From a virus (taxonomy: Duplodnaviria > Heunggongvirae > Uroviricota > Caudoviricetes), in IMG/VR virus record IMGVR_UViG_2695420596_000007, positions 1-21,599 of that record: 21,599 nucleotides of DNA; one strand, 5' to 3'. This document shows positions 5,570 to 14,586 of this stretch, in pieces. The notes under the pieces are model-generated. The model was not told the origin of the DNA and did not search any database. It worked only from the letters and a program-made list of their open reading frames with translations. Position numbers and translations under genes: made by a program. Position 1 is the stretch's first letter. The number at the start of each line of letters is the position of its first letter.

Positions 5570-6154
5570 TTATTGTTTGTTTTTTTCGTTCTGGTTGATG
5601 ACAAATTCAATGTAACTTTCGATCTTTGCTTTCTCGGTTTCGGGTAACAATGCGTAGCGCGAGCGATCATAGTTGATGGTCGCAGGGTCGTGCGGGTGAA
5701 TCAGTAATTCATAGCCGTGACGCCCGAATGCGGATGCAACATTCTCCAGGGTGGAAATGGAAACGCTGACCTCATTGTTTAACAGGCGGCTAATTGTCAC
5801 CTGGGCGACGCCGGATGCGCGGTGAAGTTTTCCCTGTGTTGAAAGGTCGCGGCTTTCGCTCATCCAGCGTTCCAGGTTGTGAGCCGCCAGCTGACCAATG
5901 TCGCTTGGGCCGACAGGCTGAAAACCTTCCTGAGAAAGCGAACGATCGATATCAAGCCAGTTACGGGGTTTATTGGCGGCAGCTTCAATTTTTCGCGCAA
6001 CCTGGTCGCCGATAACCTTCTTGCCAAGAGCCCAGCGGTTTACCAGATTTGCCTGAGTTCCAAGTTTTTCTGCCATCCGCGTCTGAACACCATTGAATTC
6101 ACGGTCGATCAAGTCGTTGAGATTTTGCCTGCGGACGTCCTGGATACTTTTCAT
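5570..6154 (-). CDS. Prophage repressor candidate: XRE-family protein with two HTH regions and no LexA-like S24 peptidase domain
   Basis: 194-aa ORF; N-terminal HTH (MAEKLGTQANLVNRWALGKK) and a second HTH-like segment (VAQVTISRLLNNEVSVSISTLENVASAFG); no GDSM or Ser-Lys autocleavage signature; divergent from a Cro-like gene. Confidence 0.7.
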   Translation of the reverse strand: MKSIQDVRRQNLNDLIDREFNGVQTRMAEKLGTQANLVNRWALGKKVIGDQVARKIEAAANKPRNWLDIDRSLSQEGFQPVGPSDIGQLAAHNLERWMSESRDLSTQGKLHRASGVAQVTISRLLNNEVSVSISTLENVASAFGRHGYELLIHPHDPATINYDRSRYALLPETEKAKIESYIEFVINQNEKNKQ

Positions 6155-6209: not shown

Positions 6210-6272
6210 TTACCCAACAGGTAAATGCACCTCATAGGTAACTATCCTTGATTTTTGTTACCTTATGGGTGA
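6210..6272. promoter_or_regulatory. Three-site operator cluster between the repressor and Cro-like genes (6210-6224 TTACCcaacaGGTAA; 6227-6241 GCACCtcataGGTAA; 6258-6272 TTACCttatgGGTGA)
   Basis: Palindromes read directly; the arrangement parallels a lambda OR1-3 style divergent control region. Confidence 0.6.
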
Positions 6273-6308: not shown

Positions 6309-6539
6309 ATGAGCGATAACGGACATTTCGATTTCAAAAAGCACTGGCTTGCACTTACTCCGGATGAGCGTGAAGCCTTCGCACAGGAAGCCGGAACGAC
6401 GAGTCACTATATCCAGACTCACTTAACAGGTAAGCGCAAAATGCCAGGTAAAGTATTGATGAATGGGCTTTTTAAAGCCTGTAAAACAAGACAATGGCTG
6501 CGCTCAAAAGCAGAACTGGCATACTTCTTCTACTCATGA
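6309..6539 (+). CDS. Cro-like small DNA-binding regulator
   Basis: 76-aa ORF divergent from the repressor; HTH-like segment EAFAQEAGTTSHYIQTHLTGKRKMP. Confidence 0.55.
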   Translation: MSDNGHFDFKKHWLALTPDEREAFAQEAGTTSHYIQTHLTGKRKMPGKVLMNGLFKACKTRQWLRSKAELAYFFYS

Positions 6540-8941: not shown

Positions 8942-9002
8942 ATCGACGATCTTTTTAGTTATCAATGTAATCAATAAGTTATGTGGATAAGCGAGGGTAA
9001 AG

Positions 9003-9632
9003 ATGGAAAGTAATATCAAAGGGTTAGTTTCCGCCGGGCATGAGATGGCTTCGGAACTGAAAGCAGAATGTGGTGCCGTTGATATGCGCAGCGTGGCAAA
9101 GCTGATCAGCGATTTGGCAACCGGTAGCGGTAAAGCTTTGTCTCGTGCTCGATCAGATAAACAGGCCAGACTTCGCGATATTGATCAACGAATCCGGCAG
9201 GCACAAGAACGCCTGGAATTTTCCCGTAACGCGTTGGCACCGCACGAGCCTGGCGGTCAGTTTTTTGAAGCTCAAGCAGAACTGGCTCGGAGACAGCAGG
9301 CAGAAAGTGAACTTAATGCTCAGGCTGTTTCATTCTATAAAACAGCAGAGGTCAGGACGCCAGACGAAGTAGCTCCTTTTGAGCCTGATAAAATATTGCA
9401 ACAGGCAGAACAAAAAATGATGTCAGATCAGGCAGGAGATATTGATCTGCGCATAGCTGAAGACTCGTTGCTTGAATCACCTGACATGATAATCACCGTG
9501 CTGGATGATGATGGTAATCCACAATCGCGCAGTGCGCGTGAAGTACTGGATGAAGCGAACAGGGAAAGTGAGCAGGCAATACAGGATTCCAGCCTGTTTG
9601 ATGTCGCTGTGGCGTGTTTCTTGAGAGGTTAA
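9003..9632 (+). CDS. Hypothetical acidic coiled-coil protein (209 aa)
   Basis: Strong SD (GAGGGTAAAG) before the ATG; no recognisable catalytic motif; highly acidic C-terminal half. Confidence 0.55.
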   Translation: MESNIKGLVSAGHEMASELKAECGAVDMRSVAKLISDLATGSGKALSRARSDKQARLRDIDQRIRQAQERLEFSRNALAPHEPGGQFFEAQAELARRQQAESELNAQAVSFYKTAEVRTPDEVAPFEPDKILQQAEQKMMSDQAGDIDLRIAEDSLLESPDMIITVLDDDGNPQSRSAREVLDEANRESEQAIQDSSLFDVAVACFLRG

Positions 9633-12112: not shown

Positions 12113-12121
12113 GGAACAACA

Positions 12122-12535
12122 ATGAAGGAATTATTGCTGTTATCGGTATTTTTGATATCCGCTTGCTCGACATCCTATGATGTTTATGACGGTGTTGATA
12201 AGGCATATTGCGACAAAGTTAAAATGGATTTTTCTCTTGCCAAGACGGCGAAGGATAGTTGTATTGATCACTACGTCAAGACTTATACCAAGCCAGCCTC
12301 ATCGGCATCTGATATTGCTGAAGGTGCTGTGTTTGAGTGTAACAAGGTGATATCCATCGCAGCGAGTTCTTCATACGATGCTGCTGTATGTGCAATGGCT
12401 GAAAGAAACGGCATGTCAGTGCAAAAAATTAATAGCATGATAAGCAGTAATGACGAAGCCAAAATAAGAACTGATATCAGCTCGGTGAAAAAAGATGCCA
12501 TGAACAGAGTTGTAAAATATCAGTCATCTTTATAA
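12122..12535 (+). CDS. Putative lipoprotein (137 aa), function unknown
   Basis: Signal peptide with lipobox-like LISAC at residues 11-15; SD AAGGAA; starts 10 nt after the 824-aa gene. Confidence 0.6.
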   Translation: MKELLLLSVFLISACSTSYDVYDGVDKAYCDKVKMDFSLAKTAKDSCIDHYVKTYTKPASSASDIAEGAVFECNKVISIAASSSYDAAVCAMAERNGMSVQKINSMISSNDEAKIRTDISSVKKDAMNRVVKYQSSL

Positions 12536-12551
12536 GTCGTGACATGTCACA

Positions 12552-12575
12552 GGCCGCTCTTGCGGCCTTGTTTTT
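12552..12575 (+). terminator. Rho-independent terminator ending the rightward operon
   Basis: Stem GGCCGC/GCGGCC with loop tctt, followed by TTGTTTTT. Confidence 0.65.
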
Positions 12576-12614
12576 AACGAATGCCACCGCCGCCCGGACG
12601 GGAATCCGCAGGCA

Positions 12615-12635
12615 CAAAAAAGCCCGCAGAGCGGG
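12615..12635 (-). terminator. Rho-independent terminator for the leftward membrane-protein pair
   Basis: On the minus strand GCCCGC-tct-GCGGGC followed by TTTTTT. Confidence 0.65.
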
Positions 12636-12640
12636 CTTAT

Positions 12641-12973
12641 TCAGTTATTTACTTTCTTTGGCACTATTGCTGATAATGAGATCATAAAGCCAGTTAGAGC
12701 AGCAATAATTAATGGGAATATGAAAGCATCTGAAGTTCTCAGTGGATTCTTCATATCGAACAGAATAACAATGAAGAATGCGCTGGTTGCAAAAGTAGAT
12801 GATGAATAAACCTCATTCATCTTGTATTGCAACTTATCCAAAGAAAAAGGAGGCGTATCTTTGCAAACGGCATCCCATATCAGATGAACAGCAAGATAAG
12901 CAATGCACAGTATGAAATAAAACCTTGTCAATTGCTGTGCATCTCTGGGCGCAAGCCAAGATAAATCAGGCAT
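12641..12973 (-). CDS. Putative inner-membrane protein (110 aa), translationally coupled to the upstream small peptide
   Basis: Several hydrophobic segments; ATG lies 1 nt after the upstream stop. Confidence 0.5.
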   Translation of the reverse strand: MPDLSWLAPRDAQQLTRFYFILCIAYLAVHLIWDAVCKDTPPFSLDKLQYKMNEVYSSSTFATSAFFIVILFDMKNPLRTSDAFIFPLIIAALTGFMISLSAIVPKKVNN

Positions 12974-12974
12974 T

Positions 12975-13163
12975 TTAGTTGGCTAACTTCTTTGCGGCAT
13001 AGATAGCAGGGAGTGCAACAGCACCAGCTACAGCAAATGCATAGGCTATCCCAGCTGTAACAGTAAAAGCAGGAAGCAGGAAAGATAATCCGCCTGGTAG
13101 GGCAAAGCCTAAGCCCGCTCCGCCAATAATGGCCTTCAGCAATGTAATGATGTTGATTTCCAT
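12975..13163 (-). CDS. Small glycine/alanine-rich membrane peptide (62 aa)
   Basis: MEINIITLLKAIIGGAGLGFALPGGLSFLLPAFTVTAGIAYAFAVAGAVALPAIYAAKKLAN: two predicted TM segments with small-residue-rich motifs; SD GAGGGGG upstream. Confidence 0.5.
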   Translation of the reverse strand: MEINIITLLKAIIGGAGLGFALPGGLSFLLPAFTVTAGIAYAFAVAGAVALPAIYAAKKLAN

Positions 13164-13189
13164 GTTTCCCCCTCATGTAAACTCTCGGT

Positions 13190-13204
13190 TTACCTTTGGG
13201 GTAA
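13190..13204. promoter_or_regulatory. Palindrome TTACCtttggGGTAA upstream of the small membrane peptide gene
   Basis: Read directly. Confidence 0.5.
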
Positions 13205-13269
13205 TAGTACGCTATTCACCTGCAATCTGTACAGAATTATTTAAAGGCACATCCCTGTGCCGCCGCTCG

Positions 13270-13920
13270 TCAGAAGAACCCTGCCTTGTCGTTGATGTAC
13301 TCCGCGTGTGTCTGGATATCACGCAGGCATTTACTCACACCGACGATGTAGCAGAACATGGTGGTCAGCTCCGCCGCCGCGCCCGATACGTCGTGCCCGT
13401 CTTCCTGTAACTTGTTCAGCAGATTCATCAGCAGTGAGTTCTCCGTCAGGCCGAGAACACCAGACGGCGAGTGAATCAGGCTGCGGTAGCCGGGCTTCAG
13501 CGGGGCGCTGTATTCTTTTTTGTCTTCCAGCTTGATCGCCTCCATAATGGCGGGCATGAAGCCTGACAAGACCTTCTCCACTTTTGTTTCTTGTTGTCTT
13601 AAACGTTTCTCGCATTCAATGAAGTAGCGTCGTACCTGACGACCTTTTTCGTTACGCTCGACCATCGCCAGTTCTTTGGCTGTATCGAGGGTGAGGTGGT
13701 AGTCTTTTGCAGGACGTCCTCTGCCTATTTTTTCCCGAACTTGGGAAATAATCATAAAGTCTTGATTTTCAACGAAACCATATTCAGTAATTCGTTCGAC
13801 AATCCACGAAGCAAATCGCTTACCCACATCGAGGAAAGTGTGTAAATCACGGGCATTAACGAGAAGAGCGGTTTCGTTGGATATAGTGCCGTTGAATACG
13901 GGGATGAGTTGAGCGTTCAT
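13270..13920 (-). CDS. Phage antirepressor (N-terminal Ant/Bro-like domain plus C-terminal antirepressor domain)
   Basis: 216-aa ORF; SD GGAGA; its C-terminal region is homologous to the small ORF at 14238-14495. Confidence 0.75.
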   Translation of the reverse strand: MNAQLIPVFNGTISNETALLVNARDLHTFLDVGKRFASWIVERITEYGFVENQDFMIISQVREKIGRGRPAKDYHLTLDTAKELAMVERNEKGRQVRRYFIECEKRLRQQETKVEKVLSGFMPAIMEAIKLEDKKEYSAPLKPGYRSLIHSPSGVLGLTENSLLMNLLNKLQEDGHDVSGAAAELTTMFCYIVGVSKCLRDIQTHAEYINDKAGFF

Positions 13921-14078
13921 TATGGCGTCTCCACTTAGCGAATTACATCACCACCGCTGAGACCAATCAGATGGTGGTGAACTGAACGGAGTTGGTCTTA
14001 CCGGCCTAAGTGGTACCGGCGTCCTTTCGGACCCCCATTCAGCCCACCATAATTCTGGCATGACTGTGCTATACGCAT

Positions 14079-14101
14079 AAAAAAACCACGTCTGGCGTGG
14101 T
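14079..14101 (-). terminator. Rho-independent terminator on the minus strand between the two antirepressor genes
   Basis: Stem ACCACG/CGTGGT with a 5-nt loop, followed on the minus strand by a run of 6 T. Confidence 0.6.
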
Positions 14102-14191
14102 ATGCGCCACTTAGTAATCCGGGAGACCAATCCCGGCACTGGATTTTGCCAGTGCCCGATTACTATGGCACAAGAGGAGTGCAATGTAAAT

Positions 14192-14206
14192 TTACCGTAA
14201 AGGTAA
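14192..14206. promoter_or_regulatory. Palindrome TTACCgtaaaGGTAA
   Basis: Read directly. Confidence 0.5.
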
Positions 14207-14237
14207 ATATAAGCACTCCATTTGGTAATTGCAAACC

Positions 14238-14495
14238 TTATCTGGTTTGTTTTCGTAATTGTTCGGCACAATAGTCGAGATGTGTTTGCAGATCCCGCAT
14301 AGACATCTGTGAGCTGGTGACGTAGTTAATCAGTGCAGTCAGTTCGGCAAGTGGGCCATCGACATTAAATCCATCCTTATCGAGATCCCGGAGTAATTTC
14401 ATCAAGTGCGATCCCTCCACCAGTGACCTGACGCCTCCCGGCGTGTGAATCCTTTCGGTAAATCCGTCTTCCAGTGGATAGTGATACTGCTGCAT
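14238..14495 (-). CDS. Small antirepressor-like protein (85 aa from ATG 14495), homologous to the C-terminal domain of the large antirepressor
   Basis: HTPGGVRSLVEGSHLMKLLRDLDKDGFNVDGPLAELTALINYV aligns with HSPSGVLGLTENSLLMNLLNKLQEDGHDVSGAAAELTTMFCYI of the 216-aa protein; SD GGAGAAG 5 nt before the ATG. Confidence 0.6.
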   Translation of the reverse strand: MQQYHYPLEDGFTERIHTPGGVRSLVEGSHLMKLLRDLDKDGFNVDGPLAELTALINYVTSSQMSMRDLQTHLDYCAEQLRKQTR

Positions 14496-14516
14496 CTTAT
14501 CTTCTCCATGCAATAA

Positions 14517-14532
14517 CTGTATAAATATACAG
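14517..14532. promoter_or_regulatory. LexA (SOS) box CTGTATAAATATACAG, 22 bp upstream of the small antirepressor start
   Basis: Perfect CTGT-N8-ACAG with an AT-rich spacer, read directly. Confidence 0.75.
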
Positions 14533-14571
14533 TATCAAATAATTTGTTTGCTATCCAGCACGTTTTGCAAA

Positions 14572-14586
14572 TTACCTGAAAGGTAA
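14572..14586. promoter_or_regulatory. Palindrome TTACCtgaaaGGTAA between the LexA box and the tailspike gene
   Basis: Read directly. Confidence 0.5.

What the first reader, a model, noticed from the sequence alone, without database searches (positions are those of the whole stretch)
13270..14532. SOS-controlled antirepressor induction circuit: LexA box in front of an antirepressor, repressor without a cleavage domain
A perfect LexA box (CTGTATAAATATACAG, 14517-14532) lies 22 bp upstream of a small antirepressor-like gene, while the prophage repressor (5570-6154) has two HTH regions and no S24 peptidase/autocleavage motif. This matches the induction logic described for Gifsy-type Salmonella prophages, where LexA represses an antirepressor and the repressor is inactivated by binding rather than RecA-stimulated cleavage. 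A second, larger antirepressor sharing the C-terminal domain sits downstream, separated by a terminator.
Basis: partly seen in the sequence, partly recalled or inferred. Interest (0 to 1): 0.6.

Follow-up and report, generated by a model that had tools for sequence, protein, structure and literature searches.

The report
SOS antirepressor plus RNA-locked second antirepressor

Summary
A near-consensus LexA box lies at 14517-14532, 21 nt upstream of an 85-aa gene. The small protein is 87% identical to SPC32H Ant (PDB 5D50). The 194-aa repressor is a full-length homolog of SPC32H Rep and has no S24 domain. The box aligns with the SPC32H LexA operator, and the constitutive SPC32N mutation falls inside it.

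The "terminator" between the two antirepressor genes is a complete P1/P7 immI-type RNA module: its own promoter, IsrK (the a1/b1 targets plus a terminator), C4 antisense RNA, and a2/b2 targets over the Shine-Dalgarno of the 216-aa gene. The C4 boxes and both target sets co-vary between this window and phiV10, and across about 120 viral contigs. The 216-aa protein is an AntA N-domain fused to a complete Ant domain. A repressor-type palindrome (TTACC-N5-GGTAA, 11 copies) sits upstream of both promoters.

The prophage is defective: about 19.8 kb of packaging, head and tail genes is deleted. Each module is a member of a known kind. Their tandem coupling was not described in the papers I could search. 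Interest is moderate.

The parts
14515..14534 (.). LexA (SOS) box; 16-mer core 14517-14532
   Evidence: It is orthologous to the SPC32H box, which contains the SPC32N C-to-A mutation. The arms are conserved at 21 nt from the ATG in 25 related loci, with 9 different inner sequences.
14529..14557 (-). Inferred P_ant promoter: -35 TGGATA 14557-14552, 17-nt spacer, extended-10 TG 14537-14536, -10 TACTGT 14534-14529, which overlaps the left arm of the LexA box
   Evidence: Inference from the invariant columns of the six-phage alignment A1. The consensus scan did not report it at its 9/12 threshold.
14238..14495 (-). Small antirepressor gene (Ant, 85 aa); SD GGAG at 14507-14504
   Evidence: 86.7% identical to SPC32H Ant. 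Matches PDB 5d50_E at E 1.4e-46. Matches phrog_450.
14572..14586 (.). Repressor-type operator palindrome TTACCTGAAAGGTAA in the ant/tailspike intergenic region
   Evidence: 11 copies in the window against 0.56 expected. The equivalent site in the epsilon15 record is annotated as a repressor binding site. Conserved in relatives.
14192..14206 (.). Repressor-type operator palindrome TTACCGTAAAGGTAA abutting the -35 of P_isrK
   Evidence: It sits at a fixed position in 38 of 39 related loci, with conserved half-sites and a variable spacer. It is absent from 64 isrK/C4 loci of other phage types.
14162..14190 (-). P_isrK promoter: TTTACA, 17 nt, (TG) CATAGT; predicted start near 14155
   Evidence: A sigma-70 promoter occupies the same position in the unrelated isrK/C4 loci. 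The Rfam isrK model begins at 14155.
14079..14168 (-). IsrK RNA, equivalent to the a1/b1 targets of C4: b1 TTGGTCT 14130-14124, a1 CTAAGTGG 14114-14107, intrinsic terminator 14101-14085 plus T-run
   Evidence: Rfam RF01394, 67.7 bits against a gathering score of 50. RF03163 c4-a1b1, 39.9 bits, below its gathering score of 46.7. Terminator. Complementarity.
13970..14054 (-). C4 antisense RNA: a' CCACTTAG 14013-14006, b' AGACCAA 13998-13992
   Evidence: Rfam RF01695, 61.2 bits against a gathering score of 45. Complementarity and covariation.
13929..13966 (-). a2/b2 targets of C4 over the translation start region of the large gene: b2 TTGGTCT 13966-13960, a2 CTAAGTGG 13938-13931, which overlaps SD GGAG 13932-13929
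   Evidence: Co-varies with C4 and a1/b1 in phiV10 and in 68 loci.
13270..13920 (-). Large antirepressor (216 aa): AntA N-domain (residues 21-90) plus a complete Ant domain (about residues 131-216, nt 13530-13273)
   Evidence: Pfam AntA at 7e-28. PDB 5d50_E at 7.4e-14 over residues 135-211. 41% identical to the small Ant. The C-domain is about 97% identical to that of ZX5 ORF4, whose overexpression cut lysogeny about 1000-fold.
5570..6154 (-). Prophage repressor Rep (194 aa); two HTH-like domains, no S24 peptidase
   Evidence: 100% identical to the phiV10 and ZX5 repressors. 41.8% identical to SPC32H Rep over 98% of its length. Matches PDB 5d50_A at 4e-42. Pfam finds HTH families only.
6210..6272 (.). 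Two operator palindromes between rep and the cro-like gene (6210-6224 and 6258-6272)
6309..6539 (+). cro-like regulator, divergent from rep
   Evidence: phrog_35, annotated as a transcriptional repressor, at 5.6e-13. Syntenic with phiV10 gp41.

Best explanation
The locus is the second immunity region (immI-like) of a phiV10/epsilon15-like (Uetakevirus) prophage of E. coli. It holds two antirepressors that carry the same Rep-binding domain but are under different controls.

Layer 1 is inferred by orthology to SPC32H. LexA binds the box at 14517-14532, which overlaps the ant promoter. DNA damage leads to RecA-stimulated LexA self-cleavage, and the 85-aa Ant is then made. [quoted passage not shown] Rep therefore leaves its TTACC-N5-GGTAA operators without being cleaved.

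Layer 2 rests on what the sequence and covariation show here, with function inferred from P1/P7 c4 and Gifsy-1 IsrK. A separate promoter, P_isrK, has a Rep-type operator against its -35. It transcribes IsrK (the a1/b1 boxes plus a leaky terminator), then C4 RNA, then the 216-aa AntA-Ant fusion. C4 pairs through two single-stranded boxes with a2/b2 over the Shine-Dalgarno of the large gene and blocks its translation. IsrK carries the same boxes and competes for C4.

There is no terminator between the small ant gene and IsrK. SOS-induced ant transcripts should therefore end in, or read through, IsrK. This would link the two layers, but it is inference.

The window and phiV10 have identical Rep but different C4 boxes. 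The RNA layer should therefore give P1/P7-style heteroimmunity among phages that share Rep immunity; this too is inference.
For: LexA layer:
- The box is near-consensus and unique in the window.
- It aligns with the SPC32H box, and the SPC32N mutation lies inside it.
- The arms are conserved at 21 nt from the ATG in 25 loci, with 9 different inner sequences.
- Ant, Rep and the C-domain of the large protein all match the SPC32H Rep-Ant complex, PDB 5D50.
- Ant and Rep homologs occur in the same set of phage records.
- Rep has no S24 domain.
- ZX5 has an identical Rep and the same locus. It is mitomycin C inducible, and its large anti-repressor reduces lysogeny when overexpressed.
- Published summaries of the SPC32H mechanism: PMC7380047 and PMC9638917.

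RNA layer:
- Rfam places isrK and C4 above their gathering scores.
- Both C4 boxes have exact complements in IsrK and over the SD of the large gene.
- There is three-way covariation with phiV10: TC to CG in the b boxes and GT to AA in the a boxes.
- 68 complete triple sets, in 28 box combinations, occur among 125 module copies.
- The promoter position is conserved across the family.
- The palindrome at P_isrK and an Ant domain in the downstream protein co-occur: 52 loci have both, 47 have neither, 2 are discordant.
- The Gifsy-1 isrK-orf45-anrP locus, shown experimentally to control antirepressor translation (PMC4825925), has the same isrK plus C4 layout.
Against: - No binding or expression was tested here. 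LexA control, Ant-Rep binding and C4 action are all inferred by homology.
- Rep is only 42% identical to SPC32H Rep, so the Ant-Rep contact is not guaranteed.
- The consensus promoter scan found no P_ant candidate at its threshold. The promoter I propose rests on invariant alignment columns only.
- The c4-a1b1 model scores below its gathering threshold (39.9 against 46.7).
- Whether Rep bound next to the -35 of P_isrK represses or activates cannot be told from sequence.
- The primary SPC32H papers were not available to read. Their content comes from secondary sources and from memory.
- The prophage lacks packaging, head and tail genes, so induction cannot yield virions from this element alone.
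Confidence: 0.8

Rival explanations
1. The circuit is a non-functional relic. The prophage has lost about 19.8 kb of late genes, so the LexA box, the ant genes and the RNAs are decaying leftovers with no present role.
For: The deletion joins phiV10 coordinates 35674 and 16341 and creates a chimeric ORF at 9003-9632. The acyltransferase gene also looks split.
Against: All regulatory parts are intact. The small Ant is 100% identical to that of phiv142-3 and Rep is 100% identical to that of phiV10. Both RNAs score above the Rfam gathering thresholds. Integrase, the lysis cassette and attR are also intact. The exact junction occurs in none of 5,426 complete E. coli genomes, so the deletion is probably recent. 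Antirepressors can act in trans on other prophages, as shown for Gifsy and Fels (PMC3121763).
Confidence: 0.1
2. The large AntA-Ant protein is the main inducer and the small protein is a modulator. For example, the small protein could form mixed oligomers with the large one through the shared domain, or could mainly supply the IsrK-bearing transcript.
For: The two proteins share the whole Ant domain. In ZX5, the large protein's effect on lysogeny was shown by overexpression, while the small gene was left as 'hypothetical' and not tested.
Against: SPC32H and epsilon15 lack the RNA module and the large gene altogether. In SPC32H the small Ant is reported to be responsible for SOS induction (Kim and Ryu 2013, via PMC7380047). 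The small Ant is highly conserved, at 83-100% identity across E. coli, Salmonella and Enterobacter phages.
Confidence: 0.08
3. The palindromic 16-mer primarily controls the divergent tailspike gene or is a chance AT-rich palindrome, and ant is controlled only by Rep.
For: The bare CTGT-N8-ACAG pattern occurs by chance in 24% of shuffles. A Rep-type operator lies 40 nt upstream of the box. No strong promoter was found by the scan.
Against: The box is 21 nt from the ant ATG and 158 nt from the tailspike ATG. The 20-mer is 2 mismatches from consensus, with none expected by chance. The arms are invariant while the inner bases vary in relatives. A single change in the orthologous box distinguishes SPC32N from SPC32H; that mutation is reported to make Ant constitutive (Kim and Ryu 2013, abstract recalled from memory).
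Confidence: 0.02

Closest known systems
Salmonella phage SPC32H Ant/Rep/LexA antirepression system (Kim and Ryu 2013; Rep-Ant complex PDB 5D50)
   Same: The genus is the same (Uetakevirus) and the gene sits in the same place, next to the tailspike gene. Ant is 87% identical. Rep is homologous over its full length and has no S24 domain. The LexA box is at the same position relative to the ATG.
   Different: Rep is only 42% identical. SPC32H and epsilon15 have no IsrK/C4 module and no second, larger antirepressor; there ant is followed directly by a terminator.
Phage P1/P7 immI operon (c4 antisense RNA, icd, ant)
   Same: C4 RNA is co-transcribed with its target. a1/b1 lie upstream and a2/b2 lie over a ribosome-binding site. 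An antirepressor gene lies downstream. Box sequences vary between related phages that share the main repressor, as in P1/P7 heteroimmunity (PMC12197685).
   Different: There is no icd gene; a2 covers the SD of the antirepressor gene itself. The antirepressor is an AntA-Ant fusion aimed at an SPC32H-type Rep. The promoter carries a Rep-type palindrome rather than a C1 operator. A LexA-controlled small ant gene lies directly upstream on the same strand.
Gifsy-1 isrK-orf45-anrP locus (Hershko-Shalev et al. 2016, PMC4825925)
   Same: The RNA layout is the same by Rfam: isrK/c4-a1b1, then C4 (the published orf45/STnc1160 region), then an antirepressor-like gene whose SD is covered by a box. A leaky IsrK terminator and trans-activation by short IsrK were shown there.
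   Different: AnrP is unrelated to the window's large protein (E 0.17). The window has no orf45-type reading frame that ends at the antirepressor ATG. In Gifsy-1 the output described is the antiterminator AntQ.
LexA-controlled small antirepressors of Gifsy prophages (GfoA, GftA), 186 Tum, N15 AntC (Lemire et al. 2011, PMC3121763)
   Same: The logic is the same. A LexA box sits in front of an antirepressor gene outside the immunity region, and the repressor is inactivated by binding, not cleavage.
   Different: No sequence similarity was detected to the Gifsy-1 small ORF downstream of dinI. There is no dinI gene in the operon. The repressor families are different. Stoichiometry also differs: an A2B2 complex in Gifsy, against a tetrameric Ant that binds two Rep dimers in SPC32H.
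Phage P22 immI (ant, arc, mnt, sar RNA)
   Same: A podovirus with bipartite immunity: a second immunity region encodes an antirepressor next to the tailspike gene and includes an antisense RNA (from general knowledge of P22; not tested here).
   Different: The regulators are different (Mnt and Arc proteins, and sar RNA antisense to ant). P22 c2 repressor is RecA-cleavable, and P22 ant is not needed for SOS induction (PMC7380047).

Membership tests
SPC32H-type LexA-Ant-Rep antirepression | Small antirepressor homologous to SPC32H Ant | tested here: met
   86.7% identity over 98% of its length. PDB 5d50_E at E 1.4e-46.
SPC32H-type LexA-Ant-Rep antirepression | Two-domain Rep homolog without an autocleavage (S24) domain | tested here: met
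   5d50_A at E 4e-42 over residues 1-190. Pfam finds only HTH families. No LexA, cI or UmuD chains among the PDB matches.
SPC32H-type LexA-Ant-Rep antirepression | LexA box overlapping the ant promoter at the orthologous position | tested here: met
   In alignment A1 the box is in the same columns as the SPC32H box, and the SPC32N mutation lies inside it. Approximate heterology index 1.5-2.0. The overlap with the promoter is inferred.
SPC32H-type LexA-Ant-Rep antirepression | LexA binding, SOS-dependent Ant synthesis, Ant-Rep complex formation | not testable with these tools
   Indirect support only. Ant and Rep co-occur in the same phage records. ZX5, with an identical Rep, is mitomycin C inducible.
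P1/P7 immI (c4 antisense control of ant) | C4 RNA with the family's sequence and structure | tested here: met
   RF01695, 61.2 bits against a gathering score of 45, full-length match.
P1/P7 immI (c4 antisense control of ant) | a1/b1 targets upstream of C4 and a2/b2 targets downstream over a ribosome-binding site | tested here: met
   Exact 7- and 8-nt complements at 14130-14124 and 14114-14107, and at 13966-13960 and 13938-13931. a2 overlaps SD GGAG. The c4-a1b1 model is below its gathering score (39.9 against 46.7), but isrK is above its own (67.7 against 50).
P1/P7 immI (c4 antisense control of ant) | Co-variation of the C4 boxes with both target sets between relatives | tested here: met
   Window compared with phiV10. 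68 complete triple sets in 28 combinations.
P1/P7 immI (c4 antisense control of ant) | icd reading frame between c4 and ant, with translational coupling | tested here: not met
   No such ORF. The only ORF there (ATG 14062 to stop 13948) lacks an SD and ends 28 nt before the ant ATG. a2 covers the ant SD directly.
P1/P7 immI (c4 antisense control of ant) | Processing of C4 from the primary transcript (RNase P in P1) | not testable with these tools
   Needs Northern blots or 5'-end mapping.
Gifsy-1 isrK-orf45-anrP | IsrK sRNA with a leaky terminator, followed by the STnc1160/C4 region | tested here: met
   RF01394 in the window. The Gifsy-1 locus shows the same isrK plus C4 order.
Gifsy-1 isrK-orf45-anrP | Downstream protein homologous to AnrP | tested here: not met
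   BLASTP E 0.17.
Gifsy-type LexA-controlled antirepressors (GfoA/GftA) | Antirepressor and repressor homologous to GfoA and GfoR, in an operon led by dinI | tested here: not met
   No alignment to the 73-aa ORF after Gifsy-1 dinI, which I presume to be GfoA. Rep compared with the Gifsy-1 repressor matches only 40 residues of HTH, at E 3e-4. There is no dinI between the box and ant.
Lambda cI / LexA-type self-cleaving repressors | Peptidase S24 C-terminal domain | tested here: not met
   No PF00717 match at E up to 0.01. No S24 structures among the PDB matches.

The most novel reading that the evidence does not exclude
The two layers may be wired together. There is no terminator between the small ant gene and IsrK, so the SOS-induced ant mRNA would carry the a1/b1 boxes at its 3' end. 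It could then act both as messenger and as a sponge for C4. That would unlock translation of the second, domain-fused antirepressor, giving a protein-plus-RNA feed-forward.

Separately, the hypervariable C4 boxes (28 box combinations in this sample) would give a 'bar-coded' second immunity among Uetakeviruses that share an identical Rep (window compared with phiV10). A superinfecting relative with different boxes could then escape Rep immunity and induce the resident prophage. A defective element such as this one could take part in trans.
Probability: 0.3. Interest if true: 0.6.

Novelty: new member of a known kind. Interest (0 to 1): 0.4.

Why it matters
- It gives a mechanism for SOS induction of phiV10-like prophages. 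The LexA-ant-IsrK-C4 block is present in about 5% of complete E. coli genomes (281 of 5,426). These phages include O157-typing and O-antigen-converting phages.
- RefSeq labels the small Ant 'hypothetical protein'. Phage records leave the RNAs unannotated or overlay them with spurious ORFs such as 'ash family protein'.
- It shows that the SPC32H Ant domain is a portable Rep-binding module, fused to at least four different N-terminal domains.
- It shows that the Gifsy-1 IsrK system and the P1 c4 system are one RNA family. The papers I could read treat them separately.
- It predicts P1/P7-style heteroimmunity among phages with the same repressor. That prediction can be tested with box-swap experiments.

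Tried and rejected
- The consensus promoter scan found no candidate overlapping the LexA box. I propose an extended -10 promoter from invariant alignment columns instead, marked as inference.
- The two primary SPC32H papers (PMC3807360, PMC4983836) and the epsilon15 genome paper (PMC2698709) are not held. I relied on secondary descriptions, the GenBank annotations and my memory of the abstracts.
- An icd/orf45-like coupled ORF was looked for and rejected. The 37-codon frame from 14062 to 13948 has no SD and stops 28 nt before the ATG.
- The 107-aa TTG ORF at 13948-14271 was rejected as a gene, because it lies over IsrK and C4.
- Other C4 complementarities inside the small ant coding region are only 6-7 nt long and lie in stem regions. 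I treated them as chance.
- A search for the deletion junction in complete E. coli genomes found none, so I could not show that the defective form is a retained lineage.
- Local BLAST against Gifsy-1 failed because the locus file was not in the sandbox. It was replaced by pairwise comparisons.
- I did not run structure prediction or the large protein-database searches, because sequence matches to PDB 5D50 were already decisive.
Full report
**What is at the coordinates.** The 16-mer CTGTATAAATATACAG is at 14517-14532. It is the only CTGT-N8-ACAG in the window. The bare pattern is weak evidence, since 0.27 are expected by chance and 24 of 100 shuffles contain one. In its 20-nt context the site is stronger. 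AACTGTATAAATATACAGTA differs from the E. coli consensus TACTG(TA)5CAGTA at two positions, and no shuffle gave a match with up to 3 mismatches. I built an approximate heterology index from 20 E. coli SOS boxes recalled from memory. It scores the site at 1.5-2.0. The next-best 20-mer in the window scores 10.8, and the median of the training boxes is 5.0.

The small gene is on the minus strand, from ATG 14495 to the stop at 14238 (85 aa), with SD GGAG at 14507-14504. It starts 21 nt from the box. The larger minus-strand gene is 13270-13920 (216 aa). The repressor is 5570-6154 (194 aa).

**Identity of the element.** The window is a phiV10/epsilon15-like (Uetakevirus) prophage of E. coli. Compared with phiV10, it runs from the integrase gene (position 1) through the early region, rep, cro and the replication genes. 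At about 9119 it jumps from phiV10 coordinate 35674 to 16341. This deletes about 19.8 kb of packaging, head and tail genes and creates a chimeric ORF at 9003-9632. The window then continues through an internal virion protein gene, the ant locus, the tailspike gene and the lysis cassette. It ends at the att core at 20422-20438, followed by host DNA. The prophage is therefore defective, but its regulatory genes are intact.

**The LexA layer.**
- The 85-aa protein is 86.7% identical to the gene annotated ant in Salmonella phages SPC32H and SPC32N. It matches the antirepressor chain of PDB 5D50 at E 1.4e-46.
- The 194-aa repressor is identical to that of phiV10. It is 41.8% identical over 98% of its length to SPC32H Rep and matches 5d50_A at E 4e-42.
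- Pfam finds only HTH families in the repressor and no Peptidase_S24. NCBIfam adds nothing.
- In an alignment of the tailspike-ant intergenic regions of the window, phiV10, phiv142-3, SPC32H, SPC32N and epsilon15, the box occupies the same columns. SPC32N differs from SPC32H by one C-to-A change in the CAG arm.
- As I recall the Kim and Ryu (2013) abstract, SPC32H and SPC32N differ by only two nucleotides, and this change makes Ant constitutive. I could not read the paper. Reviews confirm the general mechanism: LexA-controlled Ant and an uncleaved Rep (PMC7380047), and a tetrameric Ant that binds two Rep dimers and breaks the Rep tetramer (PMC9638917).
- Among viral contigs with a close small-Ant homolog, 25 keep perfect CTGT/ACAG arms at 21 nt from the ATG, with nine different inner sequences. 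Three have ATGT in place of CTGT. This pattern is that of a conserved protein-binding site.
- The alignment also shows two invariant blocks, TGGATA (14557-14552) and TG-n-TACTGT (14537-14529), spaced 17 nt apart. I read these as an extended -10 promoter whose -10 overlaps the left arm of the box. This is inference; the consensus scan did not report it.

**The Gifsy comparison.** The logic is as in Lemire et al. 2011 (PMC3121763), but the proteins are unrelated.
- The small Ant does not align with the 73-aa ORF after Gifsy-1 dinI, which I presume to be GfoA.
- Rep shares only a 40-residue HTH stretch with the Gifsy-1 repressor.
- There is no dinI gene in this locus.

**The stretch between the two genes.** Rfam places isrK (RF01394; 14155-14079; 67.7 bits, gathering score 50) and C4 antisense RNA (RF01695; 14054-13970; 61.2 bits, gathering score 45) on the minus strand. 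A sub-threshold c4-a1b1 match overlaps isrK.

C4 has two boxes, CCACTTAG and AGACCAA. Their exact complements occur twice:
- in IsrK: TTGGTCT at 14130-14124 and CTAAGTGG at 14114-14107;
- downstream of C4: TTGGTCT at 13966-13960 and CTAAGTGG at 13938-13931. The second of these overlaps the SD (GGAG, 13932-13929) of the 216-aa gene.

This is the a1/b1, a'/b', a2/b2 arrangement of the P1/P7 immI operon. In phiV10 all three copies have changed together: TTGGCGT and CTAAAAGG pair with ACGCCAA and CCTTTTAG. A scan of viral contigs for the conserved a1b1 core returned 120 loci. Among 125 module copies, 68 show exact triple sets at fixed spacing, in 28 different box combinations. The RNA-RNA pairing is therefore under selection, and many specificities exist.

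**Promoter and operator of the RNA module.** A sigma-70-like promoter lies just upstream of IsrK: TTTACA (14190-14185), 17 nt, TG, CATAGT (14167-14162). In 64 unrelated isrK/C4 loci, a TTGACA/TATAAT-type promoter occupies the same position.

The palindrome TTACC-N5-GGTAA occurs 11 times in the window, against 0.56 expected. Two copies lie between rep and cro. One lies upstream of the small ant gene, at 14572-14586; the epsilon15 record annotates the equivalent site as a repressor binding site. One abuts the -35 of P_isrK, at 14192-14206. This last site is at a fixed position in 38 of 39 related loci, with conserved half-sites and a variable spacer. The palindrome is specific to this phage group: 0.36 per kb in loci that have it at P_isrK, against 0.001 per kb in those that do not. 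I read it as the Rep operator. Whether Rep represses or activates P_isrK cannot be decided from sequence.

**The large protein.**
- Residues 21-90 are an AntA domain (Pfam, 7e-28).
- Residues 135-211 match the whole SPC32H Ant chain (E 7.4e-14) and are 41% identical to the small Ant.
- In the viral contigs, an Ant domain in the C4-controlled protein co-occurs almost perfectly with the palindrome at P_isrK: 52 loci have both, 47 have neither, 2 are discordant.
- The same C-domain is fused to Bro-N (the majority, including phiV10 and ZX5), to Phage_pRha or to ORF6N.
- For phage ZX5, Rep is identical to the window's, and the LexA box, small ant, operator, isrK and C4 are all present. The large-protein C-domain is about 97% identical to the window's. 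In ZX5, overexpression of the large anti-repressor lowered lysogen counts from 1e9 to 1e6, and mitomycin C raised the phage titre 100-fold (PMC9782041). That paper does not mention LexA, SPC32H, the small gene or the RNAs.

**Relation to Gifsy-1 IsrK.** By Rfam, the published isrK-orf45-anrP locus is isrK/c4-a1b1, then C4, then anrP. A box covers the anrP SD. The 'orf45/STnc1160' RNA of that paper is therefore C4. The authors showed read-through of the IsrK terminator and activation of anrP translation by short IsrK in trans. They compared STnc1160 to the P4 CI RNA but did not cite P1 c4. A 2025 review still lists IsrK and c4 as separate systems. AnrP itself is unrelated to the window's large protein.

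**How it most likely works.**
- Established by homology to experiments elsewhere: LexA holds the small ant gene off. After DNA damage Ant is made and removes Rep from its operators by binding it.
- Shown here from sequence and covariation: the second antirepressor gene carries a C4 lock on its ribosome-binding site and an IsrK decoy upstream.
- Inferred: P_ant transcripts run into IsrK, because no terminator intervenes. By contrast, epsilon15 ant is followed directly by a terminator. SOS induction may therefore also raise the ratio of a1/b1 to C4 and release the large antirepressor.
- Inferred: the window and phiV10 share an identical Rep but have different C4 boxes. They should therefore be heteroimmune through this locus, as P1 and P7 are.

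**Novelty and score.** The finding as stated is a close ortholog of a known, structurally solved system. The RNA module is a typical member of the C4/IsrK family. The following appear in none of the papers my searches returned, so novelty is limited by what I could search:
- the tandem arrangement of the two modules;
- the shared Rep-binding domain;
- the Rep-type operator on P_isrK;
- the equivalence of IsrK with a1/b1.

I rate the finding as a new member of a known kind, with interest 0.4.

Noticed in passing
window 9000-9240 (junction near 9119); ORF 9003-9632: The prophage has lost about 19.8 kb relative to phiV10 (phiV10 35674 joined to 16341). This removes terminase, portal, capsid and tail genes and creates a chimeric ORF. 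The exact junction is in none of 5,426 complete E. coli genomes, so the deletion is private or recent, or an assembly artefact.
   Followed up: yes
window 5436, 5498, 6210, 6258, 6595, 8517, 8579, 13190, 14192, 14572, 15601: Eleven copies of the palindrome TTACC-N5-GGTAA (0.56 expected) are dispersed over the prophage, not only at rep/cro. This looks like a multi-operator regulon, reminiscent of the dispersed C1 operators of P1. The half-sites are the same in SPC32H and epsilon15 although Rep is only 42% identical.
   Followed up: partly
L128 (Gifsy-1 NC_010392) 34329-34131; window 14168-13970: The Gifsy-1 'orf45/STnc1160' region is a C4 antisense RNA by Rfam, and IsrK coincides with the c4-a1b1 target motif. 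The IsrK literature and the P1 c4 literature therefore describe one RNA system, but the IsrK paper and a 2025 review do not connect them.
   Followed up: partly
L006-L125 (viral contigs): The a box of the C4 system is hypervariable, with at least 20 different 8-mers. The b box has only about 5 forms. Together they give 28 exact a/b combinations, which suggests many immI-type specificities. One contig (L079) carries two modules with different boxes.
   Followed up: partly
window 13948-14271; L127 2055-2168 (ZX5): Mechanical or annotated ORFs lie over the RNA genes. These are a 107-aa TTG ORF in the window, the 'ash family protein' in the ZX5 record, and the 'similar to SF0880' feature in phiV10. 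They are probably spurious. In RefSeq E. coli genomes the small Ant is labelled only 'hypothetical protein'.
   Followed up: partly
window 12115-13259: This segment is absent from phiV10. It holds a lipoprotein-like gene (12122-12535; N-terminus MKELLLLSVFLISAC) and two small membrane-protein genes on the minus strand (12975-13163, 12641-12973). A Rep-type palindrome at 13190-13204 precedes the two minus-strand genes. They may be moron or exclusion genes under Rep control.
   Followed up: no
window 17263-18343: The O-antigen acetyltransferase-like gene appears split into two overlapping ORFs (17263-18042 and 17930-18343). The longer one matches only positions 135-360 of the 372-position PHROG profile. 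It is probably a pseudogene.
   Followed up: no
L015, L027, L066, L106: A distant class of small Ant homologs (34-37% identity), also followed by isrK/C4 and an Ant-domain protein, has ATGGTTATTTATACAG at 31 nt from the ATG instead of a LexA box. SOS control may have been lost or replaced in that group.
   Followed up: no
window 13955-13948 compared with C4 3' stem 13980-13973: GGTGGTGA just downstream of C4 is complementary to the 3' strand of the C4 outer stem, and is invariant between the window and phiV10. It could form an alternative helix in the unprocessed transcript, like the two conformers described for Gifsy-1 isrK-orf45.
   Followed up: no
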